A DNA stretch of 64,000 nt from assembly GCA_011364985.1 (NCBI GenBank), contig RDOC01000003.1:128001-192000 (forward strand). Reading direction: 5' to 3'. Below the pieces are notes generated by a model. The model did not search any database and was not told where the DNA came from. It saw only the letters and a list, made by a program, of their open reading frames with translations. This document shows, piece by piece, positions 48,999-60,816 of this stretch (position 1 is the first letter of the stretch; the number at the start of each line of letters is the position of its first letter). Both the position numbers and the translations under genes were made by a program. This stretch comes from Candidatus Thorarchaeota archaeon. Its GTDB lineage: Archaea; Asgardarchaeota; Thorarchaeia; Thorarchaeales; Thorarchaeaceae.

Positions 48999-49080
48999 GC
49001 CGCCGTAGCTCAGCCGGTAGAATCCTGTTTCCTTAGGGAACAGCATGTCGAAGATGACAGCCTGTCAAGTTGTTGGTTCC
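48999..49080 (+). pseudogene. Degenerate 5' two-thirds of a tRNA-Asn-like gene with one D-arm intron
   Basis: GCCGCCGTAGCTCAGCCGGTAG, hairpin intron, then G-ACAGC-CT-GTC-AA-GTTGT-TGGT (same anticodon stem as the 59.4-kb tRNA); T arm and 3' acceptor missing. Confidence 0.7.
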
Positions 49081-49713: not shown

Positions 49714-50898
49714 TCATACCAATGTTAAAGCAGCTGTAAACGTATCCCAATAAGTTGTTAGGTCAAAATTCTCCCATCGAGCTATTGACCCTCCGGTAGG
49801 TGGCCAAGGATCATACACAAGAAGTCCACGGAAGGTATACCAAGTTCCTAGACGAGATCTTGTATATCCAGCTACTGTTCTTGAGTGCCCAGGAATCCAA
49901 CTGATTAGTGGCCTATTTGCATTGATTTCCGATACAAACTCATTCCAATTTGCATTGGTATTTCTATTTCCAGTTAAGGCCTGACTTGTGAGATCTTGAA
50001 GAACAGTTACCACATCGTTTGCACGAGAATATGGAAGACCATTTGGATTGGCACGAGTCCCAAGTCCCAACTCTTGTGCAAGACGGTCTTGAGTGTAGTT
50101 GTATCTATAGAAATCGAGAATCATCTGAACACTGGCTGCGACACACCAAACATTTGTCAATTGCCCTCTTAGTTCATAACAAGGATGATGGTCATCATTG
50201 TTGGTACTGTAATGCAATTCACGAGAAATGAAGAGTGACACCACAAGTTCTGCCGGAGTTAGAATTCTTGTGAAATCGGCCAATCTAAGATACTCCGGGT
50301 TAAACATCCTATCACCAACTGGATGCTTCTTGTCCCAGAAATCAATTCGTTCTTTGAAAGATTTCTTATTCTTTACTCTCTTCGCGCTTGGTATTTCTCT
50401 CAAAAGGGACCATCGCTCGAAGTGCCCAGGAGGCACCCCTGGAGTCCTAGGCTTTTCATCCGGAACCTTCTCCCATGTGAACAGCTCCAACATCAGCACT
50501 TCTCTTCCTCTTTGAAGAAATTGGATTGCCAGTTTTGGATAGCTATACGCCACGAATCGAGTTTGGTTGAATTTCACTCGATGTTTTCGTTCAGCAATCT
50601 GTTTTCCTTCCTTCAGCAGTTTTGGGAAACTCCAATCTGGTCCGAGCTGTATTGCCATCAGTGGATGCCCCAATTCTGGATTGGCCGCAATATCTGCTTG
50701 GAATACTTGACGACCCTTCTTTACTGGCACGCGATATAATAGTAGCTCGCCGTTTGTATCATAAACAGGAGTTCCAGACGACTGAACCTTACCATTCTCA
50801 AAGAGTTGCTTCGGCAAGATGCCCGAGTGAAGGAGTGCATTGAGTTCTAGTCCTGCAATGCGTTTTATCATATCACGTTTCAACATTAGTCCTATCAA
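49714..50898 (-). CDS. Papain-fold cysteine peptidase (C39-like) with long N-terminal domain
   Basis: QLTNVWCVAASVQM (Q..C), GHSRTVAGY (H), VYDPW (D). Confidence 0.8.
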   Translation of the reverse strand: MIGLMLKRDMIKRIAGLELNALLHSGILPKQLFENGKVQSSGTPVYDTNGELLLYRVPVKKGRQVFQADIAANPELGHPLMAIQLGPDWSFPKLLKEGKQIAERKHRVKFNQTRFVAYSYPKLAIQFLQRGREVLMLELFTWEKVPDEKPRTPGVPPGHFERWSLLREIPSAKRVKNKKSFKERIDFWDKKHPVGDRMFNPEYLRLADFTRILTPAELVVSLFISRELHYSTNNDDHHPCYELRGQLTNVWCVAASVQMILDFYRYNYTQDRLAQELGLGTRANPNGLPYSRANDVVTVLQDLTSQALTGNRNTNANWNEFVSEINANRPLISWIPGHSRTVAGYTRSRLGTWYTFRGLLVYDPWPPTGGSIARWENFDLTTYWDTFTAALTLV

Positions 50899-51037: not shown

Positions 51038-51295
51038 ATTACTGTCATAGTGTTTCGTGACTCGAAAGATGAGAAGAAGATTGCTGAGAGCCTAGGCTTC
51101 CAAATAACGCTTGCACCAACAGCTGTGAAGTACTTCCCAAGAACCGAGAGAGTATCTGTGAATTGGGTTGCCATAACTACAACAAAGGAAGATGCAGAAC
51201 GCTGGGCTGACATCTGACCTCCAAATGATAAGCGAAAACGAGATGCTGTAGAGTTCTGGCTTAGAGAAGGAGCTGAGAAATGGCTTGATTCCTGA
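51038..51295 (+). pseudogene. 3' remnant of a paralog of the 56.7-58.7 kb LAGLIDADG-like gene
   Basis: DEKKIAESLG...KYFPRTERVSVNWVA...DI*PPNDKRKR aligns with DEIRIVRKLG...RYHERSGRVSVAWTA...MIAPSNDVIKR; internal TGA at 51215; missed by the ORF track. Confidence 0.8.
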
Positions 51296-51301
51296 AAGAA
51301 G

Positions 51302-51320
51302 TAGGAAGCGCCACCGGGAG
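51302..51320. repeat. 19-bp direct repeat copy 1 (tRNA-Asn 3' end; putative att)
   Basis: TAGGAAGCGCCACCGGGAG identical to 59298-59316. Confidence 0.85.
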
Positions 51321-51391: not shown

Positions 51392-52786
51392 ATGGGGCCT
51401 AATCATATGTTTGACTATTTTCGTTGGCAAGGAGTTCCCACCTATCCCTTGACTCAATCAGATAAACCTCGAACTGCAGTCTTCTGGGATGCTGAGAATG
51501 TTAGTGAGATCACAGGGGCCGATGTCGTAGAGAATTTCAATACTTGGTTGGAAAATGACTATGATATTAATGCGAAATTTGCATTTGCTGACTGGAGTGG
51601 CCCCTATAGAGAGGTTGCTAATGCGCTAAACAGAATTGGATTTGACTTCATTCACGTTCCTGACGATTTGAAGGATAGTACTGATTATCAAATGGCCGCC
51701 TACATGATTGATTGGCTTCTACGTTCACCAGAAACCTCCTCCTATGTGATTGTTTCTGGTGATGCAGGGTTCGCACTAATTATGAGAGCGCTGCAAAAAC
51801 AGGGAAAGAAGGTAACAGTGGTTAGTAATCCAGTAGTCACCCGACCGGAGTACATGATTTATGCTGATAGATACGAGGACATTGACCGATTCAAGCCAAA
51901 GGCATTGAGAATAGACCCTCTGAAAGACGAAAAGGGAAAGAAGCTGACACCCGACGAGCTGAAAGAGGTGGCTGTACTCAGATTGTTGGAAACCATTGCA
52001 AGACTAGAAGGAGAGAACAGACCGACATATGACAAATATGTCAAAGTAATGTTATCCAGATACAATCCAGATATTTCCTTTGGACGACCTGGCTCTTATA
52101 ATTGGGAGGAAGCAATTACTGAATCCCTTTTTGATGGATTGATTGTGCATGAAGGGCAAGGAGTCACCGCACAGCTTAAGCTGACTAAGAAAGGAGCTGA
52201 AATGAGCGAAGGCCGTTCGGCCTCCGTTGAGAGCGCCCTCGAAAAGCTGGGAGAGATTGTCGAAACAATGTATGAGAAGGGGCAGCACACAGGAATGGAA
52301 TCAGTAGTTCATGAGGTGAGGAAGGCCAAAATTGACTATGTGGATTTTGGCTTTCAGAAATTCGGCGACTTTTCAAGAGCTGCAGAAGGTCGCAATATAA
52401 TCAGAATAGAAACTAAAGAGAGCAGCACTCCTATTATCAAACCAGTTTATTCTGAAGAAAGGGCTCGGATTTGGTATGAAACAAACCTAGAGAACTACTT
52501 CGGAAAAGGAGCAAGAATACCCCAATCAAGATTTGTTCAGAGGACAATACAGTTTCTCTATCAGTATGATGCTGGTTTCTCAAAACTTGAGTCATATCTA
52601 AGCGATGAGAAAACACAGAAAAGCTATGATGCAATTCTTGAAAACAGCGGAGTTTCTTTCATTCCGCCATATGAAAAAGTTCTTCTCACGCTTCTACTGG
52701 GATTGGGCATAGATTGCCAAGAAGCACTTGAAATTGTAAACCGAGAATTGGCTCCGCTCGGTTATGAACTCAAGTGTCCGGAGTAG
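51392..52786 (+). CDS. NYN-domain ribonuclease with LOTUS/OST-HTH domains
   Basis: VFWDAEN, KDSTD, IVSGDAGF; IDYVDFGFQKFGDF LOTUS-like motif. Confidence 0.8.
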   Translation: MGPNHMFDYFRWQGVPTYPLTQSDKPRTAVFWDAENVSEITGADVVENFNTWLENDYDINAKFAFADWSGPYREVANALNRIGFDFIHVPDDLKDSTDYQMAAYMIDWLLRSPETSSYVIVSGDAGFALIMRALQKQGKKVTVVSNPVVTRPEYMIYADRYEDIDRFKPKALRIDPLKDEKGKKLTPDELKEVAVLRLLETIARLEGENRPTYDKYVKVMLSRYNPDISFGRPGSYNWEEAITESLFDGLIVHEGQGVTAQLKLTKKGAEMSEGRSASVESALEKLGEIVETMYEKGQHTGMESVVHEVRKAKIDYVDFGFQKFGDFSRAAEGRNIIRIETKESSTPIIKPVYSEERARIWYETNLENYFGKGARIPQSRFVQRTIQFLYQYDAGFSKLESYLSDEKTQKSYDAILENSGVSFIPPYEKVLLTLLLGLGIDCQEALEIVNRELAPLGYELKCPE

Positions 52787-53934: not shown

Positions 53935-56652
53935 TTGCAATTGTTTGGGCCATGGAAAGGAGAAGAATTAGTAGGAGCTCTAGAAGTGCTGGAGATTCCT
54001 GAAACATACATGTTGCAATCAGATTCGGGGAGTCAGCACCGTTCGTACGGCAAGTCATTCATAAGTATTTTACGAGGAATGATTCTAGCCAAAACGCCTG
54101 TAGCTCTACGTCTTGAACGAACTCACGGGAAGACTCGAGTACTGCTCTTGACATGGGCAAGAAACCAAGAAGATCTGCAAAGGTTTCTGGACTCACTCTC
54201 CTCGAACTTAGTAGCTCATCTTCCCAAGTTCAAACTGAAGCGGCATGAGTTATTCCAAGGATTTTCATCTCATCCAAACATCCAAGGCATTAATGCCTGT
54301 CTAGTGGGCGAGCCAGAAATCACAGAGGAAAAAGATGATTCGCCAAAACCAATGGATGTTGTTGGAGAGTGCATCCAGAACCTCTCAAATGCAATCCTTC
54401 AGGTCTTTGTCACTCCCACTAAAACCAATCGTGGCAAAGTGAGAGGTTTGGAACGCGCCTATGAACGGGCGATGGAACAGTCACAGCAGGTAGTTTCCGC
54501 TGCCAGCATGTTCTCGCCAGACATTCAACAGTCCACCACACGGGTTAGTGCTAGTGCTTCACGTGATGCTGAACGTCTTTCCAGACAGATCAAACGAATG
54601 AGTAGCCGTTACTTGGGAAAAGTGTCAGTTGTTGCGACCTGCTGGCACCAAGATAAGAGAGTTGCAGAAACAGAGGCCCGACGACTGCTGTCCGTTCTCA
54701 TGAGTAGCGTCACCCCTGCTGACAAGGAAGAAGACCTTCGAGTTGAGATTAAGAAGAAGGCCAAAGACTTTGAGAAGGCTCTGGCTGGAAGACCCATTGG
54801 GAAAGAAACCATTCTTGTCCCTGAGGAGATAGTCAACTACTTCACACTCCCACGTGTAGACATGGGAATCAAGGTGTCACGTCGAGAGGACTTCTCTACG
54901 GCGGGTATTGACCTAACGAAACTTGAGAACAATGAGAATGTGCCTCAGCCCAGTATCAGCCCGGCCCCTATGTCAGACTGGAAACCTAGGACAGCAACAA
55001 GATGGTCACCCGCAGAGGATGATACCATATGGAGATTCCCCCTTGAGAAGCTCCTTCTTCTTGGCTATGCAATTCGGAACAATGCACCTCAGAAACAGGA
55101 GCCCTATGGTCTTGTTCCACGAATTCTGGGCTCCCACGTCGGCATCTATGGGAACACCGGCTACGGCAAGACCACCACCGCCGTCACGCTCATTGCTCAG
55201 GCCTACAGGAACAATGTCATCCCAATCATTCTCACTCCCGGAAACGTTGACGACTGGCGAGTCCTTAGGGACCTCTACGATGAGTTTCGTATCTTTACTG
55301 CCGGAAATCCCGATGTGGCACCCCTGCGATACAACATGTGGAATGTCCCGGACGGTGTCCCCATTGGCAAGTACATCGATAGGATGGTGGACGTCCACAC
55401 CGCTGCTCTCCCAACAGACGGCGTCATCTCCATGCACTTTGACGATGTCTTCAACACTATGTACGAGAACTGTGGCTGGTCACGCATGGGGAACGTCCGA
55501 GGTCGTCCCATCCTGCTCTCGGACCTGTATGAGGCCGTACATGAGGTTGCGGACACTCACCTGAAGTACGGCGATGAGATGCGCAGGGACTTTCATGGTG
55601 CACTCGATGCGCGCCTTCGCAGCATTCTCAGAAACGACATTCTGGTGGACATGTTCAACACGCCCAGTGGGCTCACGATTCCCGAACTCCTCTCTCACCC
55701 GACCATCATTGAGACCCGTGACCTCTCTCCTGAAGACCGGGCGTTGCTTACTGGCGCCCTTACGGTGGGCATCAGCGAGTACCTCATTGCGAATCCGCGG
55801 AAGACGGTCAGTCATCTACTGGTCATTGAGGAGGCCCATCACTTCCTCAAGCGTCCACGAATGGCTGGAGGCTACGCTGAGCCCACCTCCCAGCAGAAGG
55901 CCACGGAGAACATCACTGAGATGCTACGGACTCAACGCGGGACCGGTCTAGGCCTTATGCTCATCGACCAACTTCCCAGCAGTCTTCCTCTGGACATTGT
56001 CAAGCTCCCCAGCAGTGTCATCATTCACACACTGACCGACGTGGAGGAGCGTACTCTGGTTGGCAGGCAAGCCCTGTGTAACGACGCGCAGATCGAGCAC
56101 ATTGGCGGCATGGGTATCGGGGAGATCGTGGCACGAGTGCAGACGCAGACCGTTCCGTCTAACGTGCAGGTGGTGCCGCTGGATTATGTACTCACGCAGC
56201 CTCTGCCCAAGCGCCCTTGGACCGATGCGATGATCAGGAGTGCGATGCGGCCGGTCTTCGAGGGCAATCCTCACCTCGACGAGAGTCATCCGCTCTCTGG
56301 GGAGCTTCGGGGCGCCCTGAAGGGCATCTCGGCGCCGGCACGTATGGAACTTCGCCCCGAGGCACAACTGGTCAGCCTGTCCAGCAGGCAGGAAACCGAC
56401 ATCTCGGAGATCGTCAACACGCCCGCCTTTGTCGATGCTTACTTGGACCGTGTGGGGCTGGCGTCGCAGGGTGACCCCGCTGCTGTGGCTCGGTTGCTGA
56501 CGGTGGTGGCCGGGAAGTTCTGCTCGGATGGGGTGCAGGTGGTTCCCTTCGCTGAGCGCCTTCTTCTGCATGCGGCAGGGATGCTTCAGGAGCCTCGAGA
56601 GACCGCCGTTCTTGGGGGGATTCTTCTGGCAATCAGGGGTACTAGTGTGTGA
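53935..56652 (+). CDS. HerA/FtsK/VirB4-superfamily ATPase (DUF87-like)
   Basis: HVGIYGNTGYGKTT Walker A, LLVIEEAH Walker B, EMLRTQRGTG, IDQLPS. Confidence 0.85.
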   Translation: MQLFGPWKGEELVGALEVLEIPETYMLQSDSGSQHRSYGKSFISILRGMILAKTPVALRLERTHGKTRVLLLTWARNQEDLQRFLDSLSSNLVAHLPKFKLKRHELFQGFSSHPNIQGINACLVGEPEITEEKDDSPKPMDVVGECIQNLSNAILQVFVTPTKTNRGKVRGLERAYERAMEQSQQVVSAASMFSPDIQQSTTRVSASASRDAERLSRQIKRMSSRYLGKVSVVATCWHQDKRVAETEARRLLSVLMSSVTPADKEEDLRVEIKKKAKDFEKALAGRPIGKETILVPEEIVNYFTLPRVDMGIKVSRREDFSTAGIDLTKLENNENVPQPSISPAPMSDWKPRTATRWSPAEDDTIWRFPLEKLLLLGYAIRNNAPQKQEPYGLVPRILGSHVGIYGNTGYGKTTTAVTLIAQAYRNNVIPIILTPGNVDDWRVLRDLYDEFRIFTAGNPDVAPLRYNMWNVPDGVPIGKYIDRMVDVHTAALPTDGVISMHFDDVFNTMYENCGWSRMGNVRGRPILLSDLYEAVHEVADTHLKYGDEMRRDFHGALDARLRSILRNDILVDMFNTPSGLTIPELLSHPTIIETRDLSPEDRALLTGALTVGISEYLIANPRKTVSHLLVIEEAHHFLKRPRMAGGYAEPTSQQKATENITEMLRTQRGTGLGLMLIDQLPSSLPLDIVKLPSSVIIHTLTDVEERTLVGRQALCNDAQIEHIGGMGIGEIVARVQTQTVPSNVQVVPLDYVLTQPLPKRPWTDAMIRSAMRPVFEGNPHLDESHPLSGELRGALKGISAPARMELRPEAQLVSLSSRQETDISEIVNTPAFVDAYLDRVGLASQGDPAAVARLLTVVAGKFCSDGVQVVPFAERLLLHAAGMLQEPRETAVLGGILLAIRGTSV

Positions 56653-56661
56653 GTGGTTCGC

Positions 56662-58713
56662 ATGGCGGGACGTATCGAGAGCAGGGGCCGCGGTGAGAGG
56701 TCTGAGATACGGGATGCTGGCAGTGATGTGCGGGAGCTTCGGGAGGTACGGGACGCGGAGGAGGTTCAGGTTGAAACCGGGGAGGATGAGCATGCCGTTG
56801 AGCGGATTGAGCGGAGCGATGCGCAGGAACCCGTGGAGCGGAGGGTCGTTGATGCGATTCAGGAACTGGATGCTGAGGAAGGGCGTGAGAGCGACACGCG
56901 GAAACGGATTGCTGGTGCCCTCAGGGAGCTGGAGGAGATAGAGGGCGGGTCCGTCAGGGACAGGGTCGAGCGGGCAGTTGCGGAGGTCAAGGAGGAAGTT
57001 GAGAAACCGGACATTCCTCCTGAGAAGGACTTTGAGGATGCAAGAGAGGTAGTAGAGAGAGCCAAGGAGGTTGAAGAGGCAAACGTAGAGGCCAAGGAGG
57101 AAGAGAGTAGGGTATCAGAGTCGTCACCCAGAGAGGCGTTTGAGGATTCATCAGAACAACGGGCGGAGGGGGAGAAGCGCAAGGGGCTTGAGAGGGTTCC
57201 CGATGAACAGGTGCGCGAAACCTTCTCGGAGTTGGAATCGAAGGAGGGTGAACCACGAAGCTGGGCTTCGGAGGAGATTGCAGAAGGGCTGAAGCGGCTC
57301 GCTCCGGAAGACGCAGAGGTTTCTCGGGTCTATTGTGCAGACATTCGAGAGGGATTGGGCCTGACGCCGGAGGAGGTCGAGTCCTTCACGAATGAGTTTC
57401 AGCAGGCGAAGGAGGCACTTGAGGCAGAGGGGGAGGTTCGATGTGGCATGGTGGATGAGAAGGTCTACATTTGGAGGCCAGACTTGGACCCAACCCAGCT
57501 TGAGAATGCTTATGGCAATCTCTACTACTATTTCCGTGATGAAGAAGCATTTGAGAAGTATATCTGGGATATTGCGTGTCCTCTGGGAATTGAGGGGGAT
57601 GATGAGAAGCAGAACATTGAACATCTTCAGAAGCTAGCCTCTCAGATGTTGACTGAGCCTACGAGTGAATACTGCGTGAATCCTAGACTCAATCGTATTC
57701 GTGGAGATCATGTCCATTTTTTTAATAATTTGTCTGGAAAGACACTGTCTGAGTTGGAAGGTGAGATTTCAAAGATCACTAAGAAGGGTGGTCGAGGAGG
57801 AATTAGGAATCCGAGGTTTCCTGAAGGCGAGGAGTTGGAGATTGCATTGGCTCGCCTTACTGCTGTCGCTGTCAGCGATTGCCACCTGAAAGCAAATGGA
57901 ACCCTTGAGTATGCTGAGGGGGAGATAAGTCGGATACGTATAGTTGAGAGAGATCTTCAGGTGTTTGGAGATATTAGAATGAATCCAAAGTTAAAAGAGA
58001 GAGAGAATTTCTATGAAGTCTTCTTGCCTTCTCCATTCGGAATCGTGTTATTACACCTAGGAATACCTTCAGGTGACCGGACGGTCCAGAATCCAGGGCT
58101 TTATCCGGAACTTAGGGAGTTCTCAGTAAAGGCCCAGTGTGGATTTATTGAGAATCTAATCCCTCAAGATGGAACCATTAGCAGAAAGAATGTTCAGTGG
58201 ACTCACTCAAACGCCCTACATGCAGGCGATAAAACAGAAATCTATGGAATCGAGCCCAAAGTGGGGCGCAAAGAAATCAATTTGATAATTGAAGAGGGGA
58301 AGAGAGAGAAACACAGTTGGGTACTTAATTACGGAAAACTGGAAGAGCTTAGACAATCTGATTCAGATAATCTTAGACATATTGCAGACAGTCTATGGAA
58401 CATTGTTTATGAAAATCCCAACCGACTAGTTGAGGATGAGATAAGAATTGTTAGAAAGTTGGGTGTAAATTATAATGCAAAACCATACACAATCCGATAT
58501 CATGAGAGGAGTGGGCGGGTTTCTGTTGCTTGGACAGCAGAACCAGAGAGTGTTCTTGAATCAATCAAGCTAGCGATGATTGCCCCTTCTAATGATGTAA
58601 TTAAAAGACAGATCATGAGGGATTTGATTGCAAATCATCCTAAATACATGAGAAGAGCACTTCGGCAATTCGAAAAGAACGGTATAGAGGTTTATCAGTG
58701 GTGGACATCATGA
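56662..58713 (+). CDS. Protein with Glu-rich N-terminus and LAGLIDADG-like (DOD-type) C-terminal region
   Basis: LARLTAVAVSDCHL and FIENLIPQDGTI resemble the two LAGLIDADG helices, with LLHLGIPSGDRT between; ATG at 56662 (track start GTG 56653). Confidence 0.6.
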   Translation: MAGRIESRGRGERSEIRDAGSDVRELREVRDAEEVQVETGEDEHAVERIERSDAQEPVERRVVDAIQELDAEEGRESDTRKRIAGALRELEEIEGGSVRDRVERAVAEVKEEVEKPDIPPEKDFEDAREVVERAKEVEEANVEAKEEESRVSESSPREAFEDSSEQRAEGEKRKGLERVPDEQVRETFSELESKEGEPRSWASEEIAEGLKRLAPEDAEVSRVYCADIREGLGLTPEEVESFTNEFQQAKEALEAEGEVRCGMVDEKVYIWRPDLDPTQLENAYGNLYYYFRDEEAFEKYIWDIACPLGIEGDDEKQNIEHLQKLASQMLTEPTSEYCVNPRLNRIRGDHVHFFNNLSGKTLSELEGEISKITKKGGRGGIRNPRFPEGEELEIALARLTAVAVSDCHLKANGTLEYAEGEISRIRIVERDLQVFGDIRMNPKLKERENFYEVFLPSPFGIVLLHLGIPSGDRTVQNPGLYPELREFSVKAQCGFIENLIPQDGTISRKNVQWTHSNALHAGDKTEIYGIEPKVGRKEINLIIEEGKREKHSWVLNYGKLEELRQSDSDNLRHIADSLWNIVYENPNRLVEDEIRIVRKLGVNYNAKPYTIRYHERSGRVSVAWTAEPESVLESIKLAMIAPSNDVIKRQIMRDLIANHPKYMRRALRQFEKNGIEVYQWWTS

Positions 58714-59300
58714 ATATGAATGAGATGATACAAAAAGCTGCTGGGATTGTTACAAACATACTTGCAAGGATTGAATCACGGCAATTGCCCCTGAAAGATG
58801 TGAAGATTAGAGTGAGTGAGAAACTGGAGGGGGCAGACGATATTAATGCGACTGTGGATAAAGCAATAGAGTGGGCACTAGATAATTGGATAGTGGATAA
58901 GGTCTTGGACTATGATGAGGATGACGAGGAATTTGCTGGAGAGCTAGTATGGTTCCTACGTGCAACAACAGAAGAAGAAGCCGAGTATCTAGGTCGCTTG
59001 TCGAAAGCAGAGCATGCTCTACTAAATATCCTGAGAAATGCTGAAAACGAAAGCAGACTAGGAGTAATTCGGGCAAATGAAGCTCTTCAGAGATTGCGTA
59101 AACTAGGGTTTGATTTAAAGTCTGCACCATCTATTATTGGAAAGACAAGTAGTTTCTTCAGGCCGGAGAATGGAAAGCTGATTGAGTTCAAATATCTACT
59201 TTCTGAAGAAGAGAAATCTGAGGAGTATGTAACAGCTCTGAAAGAACTTGATGAGAAAGAACGCAGGAAACAAGAACGTTTGGATAGGATGAATGAATAG
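58698..59300 (+). CDS. Hypothetical protein (winged-helix-like), translationally coupled to the upstream gene
   Basis: ATG at 58710 overlaps the upstream TGA; its stop lies within the 19-bp repeat. Confidence 0.7.
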   Translation: MVDIMNMNEMIQKAAGIVTNILARIESRQLPLKDVKIRVSEKLEGADDINATVDKAIEWALDNWIVDKVLDYDEDDEEFAGELVWFLRATTEEEAEYLGRLSKAEHALLNILRNAENESRLGVIRANEALQRLRKLGFDLKSAPSIIGKTSSFFRPENGKLIEFKYLLSEEEKSEEYVTALKELDEKERRKQERLDRMNE

Positions 59301-59316
59301 GAAGCGCCACCGGGAG
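59298..59316. repeat. 19-bp direct repeat copy 2 (overlaps the tRNA-Asn 3' end)
   Basis: Identical to 51302-51320. Confidence 0.85.
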
Positions 59317-59529
59317 GATCATCGATCGCTCCGGAAATCGAAGCGAAGCTCGAACCTCCGACCATTCGTCGCACACCACGGAATGTGATGCACTACAACT
59401 GTCTGGCTCTCAACCAGCCGGCTGAAAGATAACAGGCTTTAGCGGCATGGCGCAGTACGCGTCCACTGCTGTCGCTTTCGATGTAAGGCTCCCTTGGGAA
59501 CCTCACCCTACCGACTGAGCCACGGTGGC
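59305..59529 (-). tRNA. tRNA-Asn(GTT) interrupted by five BHB-type introns
   Basis: Exons 59529-59508, 59476-59471, 59438-59430, 59400-59395, 59364-59349, 59318-59305 join to GCCACCG TG GCTC AGTCGGTA GAGC G ACAGC CT GTT AA GTTGT TGGTC GGAGG TTCGAGT CCTCC CGGTGGC G (73 nt, all stems pair, G73). Confidence 0.88.
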
Positions 59530-59639
59530 TGAGTTGGCTGAGGCTGCGGATTACAATATTAACATTGCTGTTGAGGTTCGCAACCAATGACATATCTGAG
59601 AAGATAACCAGAGAGTAGAGAGGACTCATGAGAGCCAAC

Positions 59640-59925: not shown

Positions 59926-60816
59926 ATGGATGATTCGGGTTTGAGTTTCGAAGAACGTAATGAGGCCCTAGATAAGGGAGTGGAATATCTCCGACACGTA
60001 ACACTGGTGATTTTAGCAGCTTGCGGAGCATTCTGGACAGCCACAAGAGCAGATGAAGCTGCTTTTCCTTGGATAATCATGGTTTACGGCGGCGCCATTT
60101 CTTTTACTCCAGATAGAAGAAGGAGATTCCTTAGTACTGCCAAGAGAAGATTTATTCGCCTTGACGGCTAGTTGCAAGTAGATTGGGTGGAGAGGAGAAG
60201 AATTCCAAAGGAATACTATCGAGATAGTAAGAGTGAAGAAATAGAACGGATGATTAGAAGAGATCCCCACTACAAAGATTGGATTGTGATGCGTTTTCGC
60301 TCCTCGGGCGGATTATCAGATTATGAAGACATGCTTGAGATTCAAAATGCGAAAGGGAAAAGTGTCACAGAATTATCAGAGTCAGAAGTTGACCTCTTGA
60401 TCTCATCTGGAACCTTGTTTTTTGTACTTGAAAATTGTCAGAGAATGGGATTTTTCAGAAGATTCGGTTCTCGTACACCTTATGTCATACTCCTTGTACT
60501 ATTTGCAGGTATGATCTTTGCCTTTGTTGTAGGGACTGTTTTCTTTGAATACATCAGGACGCTACCAGCTGAGCAAGGATTGCTCGGATTCATTCTCTTC
60601 TTCGCGGTACTCTTCTGCTTTGCAGGAATCCTATGTTTTTCACAAAGAAACAATCATAGACGAGAGCAGGAAGCTGATTTTGCTAGAAGTAAGCAGGAGC
60701 CTATCTCAGACGAGTTACTTGATGATATTCTTGATAAAACAGAGAAGCTTGCAGATTTGAAACAAAACGATCCATCAGAATACATCCATAGGTTGAGAGA
60801 ACTGGCTGATGACTAG
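59926..60816 (+). CDS. Membrane protein, apparently split by an in-frame TAG at 60169 (ORFs 59926-60171 and 60172-60816)
   Basis: Two abutting same-frame ORFs; the downstream part has two TM helices. Confidence 0.5.

What the first reader, a model, noticed from the sequence alone, without database searches (positions are those of the whole stretch)
59298..59364. Intron load coincides with an integration hotspot: possible host-element arms race
The two other tRNAs here are intronless, whereas the tRNA hit by repeated insertions has five introns. The att-like repeat covers only the final exon plus 7 downstream bases and stops just short of the 59/60 intron. This fits the proposed idea that tRNA introns disrupt attachment or recognition sites of mobile elements.
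Basis: inference. Interest (0 to 1): 0.7.

Follow-up and report, generated by a model that had tools for sequence, protein, structure and literature searches.

The report
Five-intron tRNA at an insertion hotspot
An Asgard archaeon's asparagine tRNA gene really has five introns and sits at an insertion hotspot, but intron number does not track insertions; the introns more likely travel with the inserted elements than shield the host from them.

Summary
The host is a Thorarchaeota genome. tRNA-Asn(GTT), minus strand 59529-59305, has five BHB-type introns. A 19-nt repeat (59298-59316 = 51302-51320) covers tRNA positions 62-73 plus 7 nt and bounds an 8-kb unit holding a HerA/VirB4-like ATPase and a LAGLIDADG-fold protein, with no integrase found. 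Relics show earlier insertions. The defence reading mostly fails. No intron lies in the repeat. The repeat starts at positions 61-65 whether or not a T-arm intron exists. Among 58 orthologues, intron number does not differ between occupied and empty genes (3.0 vs 2.5, p=0.12). In this genome 4 of 8 insertion-scarred tRNAs are intronless, and the other four tRNAs with 3-4 introns are unscarred. Two signals remain. Asn and Lys(CTT), both hotspots, are richer in introns than Tyr, Ile2 and Glu. T-arm introns accompany the LAGLIDADG gene in 22 of 23 cases versus 21 of 35 (corrected p about 0.04). That fits element-borne alleles or self-immunity better than host defence. Five introns per gene are already reported in Asgard archaea. 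The scan found this module earlier in another genome.

The parts
59305..59529 (-). tRNA-Asn(GTT) gene, six exons and five BHB-type introns; unlike the other 43 tRNAs found in this genome it has no encoded CCA
59477..59507 (-). intron 1, position 22/23, 31 nt; no close match among 22/23 introns of relatives
59439..59470 (-). intron 2, position 28/29, 32 nt; nearest match in a congener (G010)
59401..59429 (-). intron 3, canonical 37/38, 29 nt; full-score match to that of G071, another genus
59365..59394 (-). intron 4, position 43/44, 30 nt; nearest match in a third genus (G099); absent from a variant contig of the same sample
59319..59348 (-). intron 5, position 59/60 (T loop), 30 nt; ends 2 nt before the repeat
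59298..59316 (-). 19-nt repeat, proximal copy: tRNA positions 62-73 plus 7 nt; holds the stop codon of the 200-aa gene
51302..51320 (-). 19-nt repeat, distal copy
53935..56652 (+). 905-aa HerA/VirB4-like ATPase; patchy, multi-copy family in Thorarchaeales (42 of 87 genomes)
56653..58713 (+). 686-aa protein with a two-domain LAGLIDADG fold (about residues 390-670); D409 and D506 invariant in 24 homologues; homologues often converge on tRNA 3' ends
58698..59300 (+). 200-aa coupled gene of unknown function
51392..52786 (+). NYN-domain cargo gene, 464 aa
52799..53617 (-). 272-aa cargo gene, no family found; a homologue precedes the ATPase in G049
51065..51295 (+). decayed C-terminal relic of an earlier LAGLIDADG-like gene, ending 6 nt before the distal repeat
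48999..49077 (+). inverted broken tRNA-Asn (positions 1 to about 47, anticodon changed, one 22/23 intron like those of congeners G008, G016, G010), with upstream DNA similar to that of the five-intron gene
60087..60097 (+). 3' end of a CCA-ending tRNA-Asn in the orientation of the broken copy, just before a 214-aa gene that is a cassette between such repeats in G010 and G016

Best explanation
The five introns are the upper tail of a lineage-wide intron load, and the locus is a high-turnover site. Shown: the introns, the repeat, the relics, and a family of integrase-less ATPase + LAGLIDADG-fold modules that often sit head-on against tRNA 3' ends across Thorarchaeales. Inferred: these modules, and short cassettes at the same site, insert just after the last exon and repeatedly replace or invert the tRNA gene itself, leaving 5' fragments, 3' repeats and a lost CCA tail. 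Each replacement brings or recombines intron-bearing alleles, so introns pile up as passengers. In this genome the congener-like one-intron allele was broken and a mosaic five-intron allele in the opposite orientation now serves. The repeat stops near the last intron because its core is about positions 62-73 anyway, not because the intron pushed it there.
For: 63 orthologues carry 0-5 introns (4,7,18,16,15,3 genes). Count is not linked to occupancy: 3.04 vs 2.49, p=0.12, within-genus p=0.13. Repeat edge 61-65 in genes with a T-arm intron and 62-65 in three without (G016, G068, G082). In this genome scars lie at tRNAs with 0,0,0,0,1,1,2,5 introns, none at Tyr (4), Val GAC, Gly GCC, Met (3 each). 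Module next to Ala GGC, Phe, Lys, Val, Asp, Gly, Ser, Ile2 genes with 0-4 introns. Recurrent layout Zip, 5' fragment, ATPase, LAGLIDADG, inverted full tRNA in G000, G063, G089 and in part G056, G072, G075, G078, G080. Broken copy's intron matches congeners while introns 2-4 of the working gene match three different genera. T-arm intron type follows the LAGLIDADG clade across genera (12/12 with 59/60; 6/11 with 50/51). Loss of CCA in 9/23 occupied vs 3/35 empty genes. Precedent: PMC3293823.
Against: No mobility enzyme is identified and no excision or transfer was seen. Fragment orientation is inverted, unlike the direct repeat of the Caldiarchaeum precedent. Many LAGLIDADG homologues have no tRNA within 1.5 kb. 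A 2026 preprint found no enrichment of mobile elements near Asgard intron gains, though with low power and integrase-type markers. Shared intron type could reflect host ancestry below genus level. Intron counts come from my own spliced alignments.
Confidence: 0.58

Rival explanations
1. Self-immunity or collaborative homing. The LAGLIDADG protein cuts the uninterrupted T-arm/acceptor region of the tRNA gene; an intron at 50/51 or 59/60 breaks that site, so an active module persists only beside an intron-bearing allele and copies it into new hosts. The intron protects the element's carrier from the element's own nuclease.
For: LAGLIDADG fold, Z 16.2, rmsd 2.8, 188 aligned; two invariant acidic residues. 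T-arm intron in 22/23 occupied vs 21/35 empty Asn genes, Fisher 0.002, within-genus 0.02, corrected over six classes 0.037; non-T-arm introns show nothing (p=0.47). The one exception (G094, no intron) has a broken LAGLIDADG gene; so has the intronless Ala gene of G099. Two nuclease clades go with two different T-arm positions.
Against: Post hoc; mostly driven by one genus (10/10 vs 4/8; p=0.07 without it). About half of the non-Asn target genes lack a T-arm intron, including all seven Ala GGC genes; an intronless Val gene in G052 lies beside a 395-aa frame with both motifs. Recognition site and activity untested. Explains one intron, not five.
Confidence: 0.22
2. Host defence arms race (first reader; idea of Randau and Soll): the host gains introns to spoil attachment sites and elements retreat to the last exon.
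For: Asn is the most intron-rich of 44 tRNAs here and a hotspot; between isotypes the two hotspots have more introns than Tyr, Ile2 and Glu. Repeats at intronless Gly TCC and T-arm-intronless Ala GGC include the T loop, and one Lys repeat starts at its 53/54 intron.
Against: No intron in the repeat; four of five introns are far from it. Same repeat edge without T-arm intron. Intron-rich alleles are not less occupied. Intronless tRNAs are scarred and intron-rich ones unscarred in this genome.
Confidence: 0.1
3. Coincidence: intron load reflects where exon sequence allows BHB motifs, the module is defence cargo that collects in tRNA-anchored islands moved by other enzymes, and the two are unrelated.
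For: No count correlation. PADLOC HerA models hit the ATPase weakly. The preprint ties introns to BHB-permissive sites and finds no element link. An earlier follow-up read the module as defence.
Against: Does not explain the T-arm association, clade-specific intron types, CCA loss or the recurring inverted fragments.
Confidence: 0.1

Closest known systems
Multi-intron tRNA genes of Asgard archaea (PMC11291895; bioRxiv 10.64898/2026.10.13.758758)
   Same: Short BHB introns at non-canonical positions; up to four listed in the parts of the PMC11291895 table I read and up to five in one gene in the preprint.
   Different: Those papers centre on Atabeyarchaeia and Jordiarchaeia; Thorarchaeota are not named in the preprint text. 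This genome averages 1.1 introns per gene, so five is an outlier here. The preprint found no mobile-element link.
Element-mediated intron gain at tRNA-Thr of Caldiarchaeum subterraneum (Sugahara 2012, PMC3293823)
   Same: A 5' fragment of an intron-poorer allele lies near a working allele with more introns, with inserted DNA between; authors propose the element brought the intron and may gain protection.
   Different: There the fragment is a direct repeat, 1.8 kb away, with a putative recombinase. Here it is inverted, 10 kb away, with an ATPase and LAGLIDADG protein and no recombinase found.
tRNA disruption as defence against integration (Randau and Soll, as summarised in PMC4390854)
   Same: Intron-rich tRNA at an insertion site.
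   Different: Introns lie outside the repeat and do not lower occupancy.
Free-standing homing endonucleases and collaborative homing (T4 SegB in the tRNA region; PMC2988022)
   Same: Nuclease gene beside a tRNA gene; intron could break its site.
   Different: LAGLIDADG fold fused to a long N-terminal part and paired with a HerA/VirB4-like ATPase; cellular chromosome; activity untested.
Integrase-driven tRNA 3'-end islands (SSV1 and pNOB8 types)
   Same: Direct repeat of the tRNA 3' end bounding foreign genes.
   Different: No tyrosine recombinase in the unit or found in this 74%-complete genome.

Membership tests
Archaeal BHB multi-intron tRNA gene | Removing the introns gives a full cloverleaf tRNA | tested here: met
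   73-nt product called tRNA-Asn(GTT)
Archaeal BHB multi-intron tRNA gene | Strict or relaxed BHB motif at each junction | tested here: met
   Central helix 4,4,3,3,3 of 4; intron hairpins beat shuffles at 0.000-0.015 for four introns, 0.08 for intron 2
Archaeal BHB multi-intron tRNA gene | Relatives lack each intron at the same junction | tested here: met
   variant contig lacking intron 43/44
Archaeal BHB multi-intron tRNA gene | Splicing endonuclease in the genome | tested here: met
   Two PF01974 genes
Archaeal BHB multi-intron tRNA gene | Spliced RNA observed | not testable with these tools
   No RNA holder listed
Intron as host defence against integration | Intron interrupts the attachment core | tested here: not met
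   Repeat lies wholly 3' of intron 59/60
Intron as host defence against integration | Attachment boundary depends on the intron | tested here: not met
   Edge 61-65 with, 62-65 without T-arm intron; only three genomes without
Intron as host defence against integration | Intron number tracks element presence | tested here: inconclusive
   No link within Asn (p=0.12) or within the genome (rho -0.05); positive trend across five isotypes
Integrase-driven tRNA island | Terminal direct repeat of the tRNA 3' end | tested here: met
   19 nt exact
Integrase-driven tRNA island | Tyrosine or serine recombinase in the element | tested here: not met
   None by Pfam, PHROGs, PADLOC or fold; PF00589 not found in the incomplete genome
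Integrase-driven tRNA island | Excised circle or empty site in the population | tested here: inconclusive
   No joint in contigs; contigs drop rare variants
Free-standing LAGLIDADG homing endonuclease | Two-domain LAGLIDADG fold | tested here: met
   Z 16.2, rmsd 2.8, 188 aligned to 7qsu; I-DmoI, PI-PfuI next
Free-standing LAGLIDADG homing endonuclease | Acidic residue after each motif helix | tested here: met
   D409 and D506 invariant in 24 homologues, each at the end of a predicted helix
Free-standing LAGLIDADG homing endonuclease | Cuts the empty allele and spares its own | not testable with these tools
   Needs a cleavage assay
Collaborative homing with an intron | Intron in the target co-occurs with the active nuclease | tested here: inconclusive
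   22/23 vs 21/35 for Asn, corrected p 0.037; not general for other isotypes

The most novel reading that the evidence does not exclude
An undescribed integrase-free ATPase + LAGLIDADG element family of Thorarchaeota homes into tRNA genes, replaces the resident gene with its own allele, and uses a T-arm intron as immunity to its own nuclease. This would be a concrete route by which non-canonical tRNA introns spread in Asgard archaea.
Probability: 0.22. Interest if true: 0.8.

Novelty: new variant of a known kind. Interest (0 to 1): 0.45.

Why it matters
Why archaeal tRNA genes gain introns is open; a 2026 Asgard census found no route of arrival. This locus gives 58 natural alleles of one tRNA with and without a neighbouring nuclease-fold gene. 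They argue against intron number as a host shield, and they point to one narrow, testable link: T-arm introns and a LAGLIDADG protein. A single cleavage assay would decide it.

Tried and rejected
ARAGORN and Rfam miss the gene; I wrote a splice-aware finder and template aligner, which mis-parsed some genes, so 12 of the 44 counts in this genome were set by hand and may be off by one. Readings as Ser, Tyr, Cys or Leu were rejected by comparison with orthologues. Intron 4 at 44/45 or 45/46 rejected by BHB pairing and intronless relatives. A further exact copy of the 19-nt repeat: none. The search for related loci with the ATPase found nothing. Atlas gave no reliable family for the 200-aa gene. 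Glu 5' pattern search was too strict; Glu counts come from fetched loci and are biased to intron-poor genes. Weak end-copy hits at Leu TAG and Sec were rejected on inspection. No RNA holder listed; the RNA run laid gave nothing, which says nothing about expression. Two LAGLIDADG rows in the tree (G055, G079) are probably out of frame. No complex prediction was sent. No paper naming this module was found.

Full report
What is there. The window comes from a Thorarchaeota genome (homologue names; 1.7 Mb, 74% complete). On the minus strand, 59529-59305 is a tRNA-Asn(GTT) gene in six exons of 22, 6, 9, 6, 16 and 14 nt, with introns of 29-32 nt at 22/23, 28/29, 37/38, 43/44 and 59/60. Standard tools miss it. 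The spliced 73-mer is a clean tRNA-Asn, every junction has a strict or relaxed BHB motif, the genome has two splicing endonuclease genes, and orthologues lacking each intron give the same junctions. A contig from the likely source sample joins exon 4 directly to exon 5, so a four-intron variant seems to coexist (one contig, 13 letters, not independent of the source).

The repeat and the insertions. The only long exact repeat is 19 nt, 59298-59316 = 51302-51320. Between the copies lie a NYN gene, a 272-aa gene, a 905-aa HerA/VirB4-like ATPase, a 686-aa protein and a 200-aa gene; no integrase was found there or in the assembly. The 686-aa protein folds as a two-domain LAGLIDADG (Z 16.2, rmsd 2.8, 188 aligned) with both acidic residues invariant. 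Repeated insertion is supported: a decayed piece of an older LAGLIDADG gene ends 6 nt before the distal repeat, a broken inverted tRNA-Asn lies at 48999-49077, and a CCA-ending 3' piece lies at 60087-60097 in the same orientation as the broken copy. The ATPase occurs in 42 and the LAGLIDADG protein in 49 of 87 genomes of the order, often in several copies. About half of the copies examined converge on a tRNA 3' end: Asn most often, also Ala GGC, Phe, Lys CTT, Val, Ser, Gly, Asp and Ile2. Asn loci also carry arrays of short cassettes between 3'-end copies.

Test 1, the boundary. If the repeat had retreated from intron 59/60, it should reach further in genes without that intron. It does not: the 5' edge is 61-65 in genes with a T-arm intron and 62-65 in G016, G068 and G082, which have none. 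Only three genomes serve as the control. At other isotypes repeats can be longer and include the T loop, so truncation by introns elsewhere is not excluded.

Test 2, this genome. I count 44 tRNA genes with 0-5 introns (16, 15, 8, 3, 1, 1). The window's contrast is partly an accident of which tRNAs it holds: 28 of 44 have introns. Eight genes have clear end-copy scars within 15 kb: Arg CCG, Gly TCC, Pro CGG, His (no introns), Asp, Ser CGA (one), Ala GGC (two) and Asn (five). Tyr (four) and Val GAC, Gly GCC and elongator Met (three) have none. Rank correlation is -0.05.

Test 3, orthologues. 63 tRNA-Asn genes carry 0-5 introns; five also occur in G073 (no LAGLIDADG neighbour found) and G087. Among 58 scorable genes, those with the LAGLIDADG neighbour average 3.04 introns and those without 2.49 (p=0.12; within-genus permutation 0.13). 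Intronless and one-intron genes are hit too (G082, G094, G016).

What survives. Between isotypes, Asn (2.6) and Lys CTT (2.0), both hotspots, are richer than Tyr (1.3, no LAGLIDADG neighbour in 28), Ile2 (0.6, none in 30) and Glu TTC (0.14). Five isotypes cannot carry a test, and Ala GGC is a hotspot with 0-2 introns. Within Asn, a T-arm intron (positions 49-60) is present in 22 of 23 occupied genes against 21 of 35 empty ones (Fisher 0.002; within genus 0.02; corrected over six intron classes 0.037). Other introns show nothing (p=0.47). The signal leans on one genus and kin are not independent. Its direction matters: alleles with the intron are more often occupied, not less. Intron type follows the nuclease clade across genera: one clade has 59/60 in 12 of 12, the other has 50/51 in 6 of 11 against 3 of 35 in empty genes. 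The one occupied intronless gene has a broken nuclease.

Most likely mechanism. Inferred, not shown: insertions at this site replace or invert the tRNA gene. Many genomes show Zip gene, 5' tRNA fragment, ATPase, LAGLIDADG, then a full tRNA in the opposite orientation, then 3' copies in the old orientation. Here the broken copy carries the congeners' intron, while the working gene's introns 2-4 are closest to three different genera, one of them a full-score match. Occupied genes often lose the encoded CCA (9/23 vs 3/35), as this one has. So introns most likely ride on exchanged alleles and accumulate where turnover is high. A stronger version, in which the T-arm intron makes the allele immune to the module's own nuclease, is plausible from known LAGLIDADG biology (own knowledge; PMC2988022) but is untested and does not extend to Ala GGC and several other targets.

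Comparison with known work. Heavily interrupted tRNAs are known in Asgard archaea (PMC11291895), with up to five introns per gene and no mobile-element enrichment in a 2026 preprint (10.64898/2026.10.13.758758); that screen relied on hallmark proteins and could miss this module. The defence idea is Randau and Soll's (PMC4390854). Element-borne intron gain with a left-behind 5' fragment was described in Caldiarchaeum (PMC3293823) and is the closest case. I found no paper on the ATPase + LAGLIDADG module; this scan noted it earlier beside tRNA-Ala in another Thorarchaeota genome and read it as defence.

Verdict. Observation confirmed. The arms-race reading as stated (intron load as host shield at the attachment site) is not borne out; a narrower link between T-arm introns and the LAGLIDADG module is weakly supported and directly testable. 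Interest 0.45.

Noticed in passing
window 48999-49077 and 59305-59575; loci L078, L084, L093, L100, L104, L109, L111, L117: Recurring inverted 5' tRNA fragments at the far end of inserted DNA; the segment between may be invertible or the product of gene replacement. Same pattern at Asp, His and Arg CCG of this genome.
   Followed up: partly
L031, L033, L038, L044, L099, L117: Arrays of 0.3-2.4 kb cassettes between 12-20 nt copies of the tRNA-Asn 3' end, with no integrase seen; the window's 214-aa gene (60172-60816) is such a cassette in G010 and G016.
   Followed up: partly
window 59365-59394: A contig in runs X1/X2 lacks intron 43/44 exactly: possible intron presence/absence variation in one sample.
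   Followed up: partly
G000:C15:169402-169595: tRNA-Tyr with four introns, two of them (56/57, 59/60) separated by a 3-nt exon.
   Followed up: partly
G000:C15:40103-41339: Broken paralogue of the LAGLIDADG gene next to what looks by eye like the 5S rRNA gene rather than a tRNA.
   Followed up: no
G000:C16:48803-58700: Intronless tRNA-Gly(TCC) followed by two 3' copies (at about 6.7 and 9.8 kb); a 1149-aa gene ends in the first.
   Followed up: partly
G000:C17:133306-141538: tRNA-His followed by 721-aa and 1774-aa frames and an inverted degenerate 5' copy; possibly another element type.
   Followed up: no
window 59365-59394 versus 50/51 introns of L039, L093: The 43/44 and 50/51 introns look alike by eye, suggesting an intron moved between positions.
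   Followed up: no
window 54000-58000: GC rises to 52-56% over the ATPase and the first part of the LAGLIDADG gene, against 41-44% around it.
   Followed up: no
window 49714-50898: 394-aa peptidase C39-like gene between the broken tRNA and the older relic; probably older cargo.
   Followed up: no
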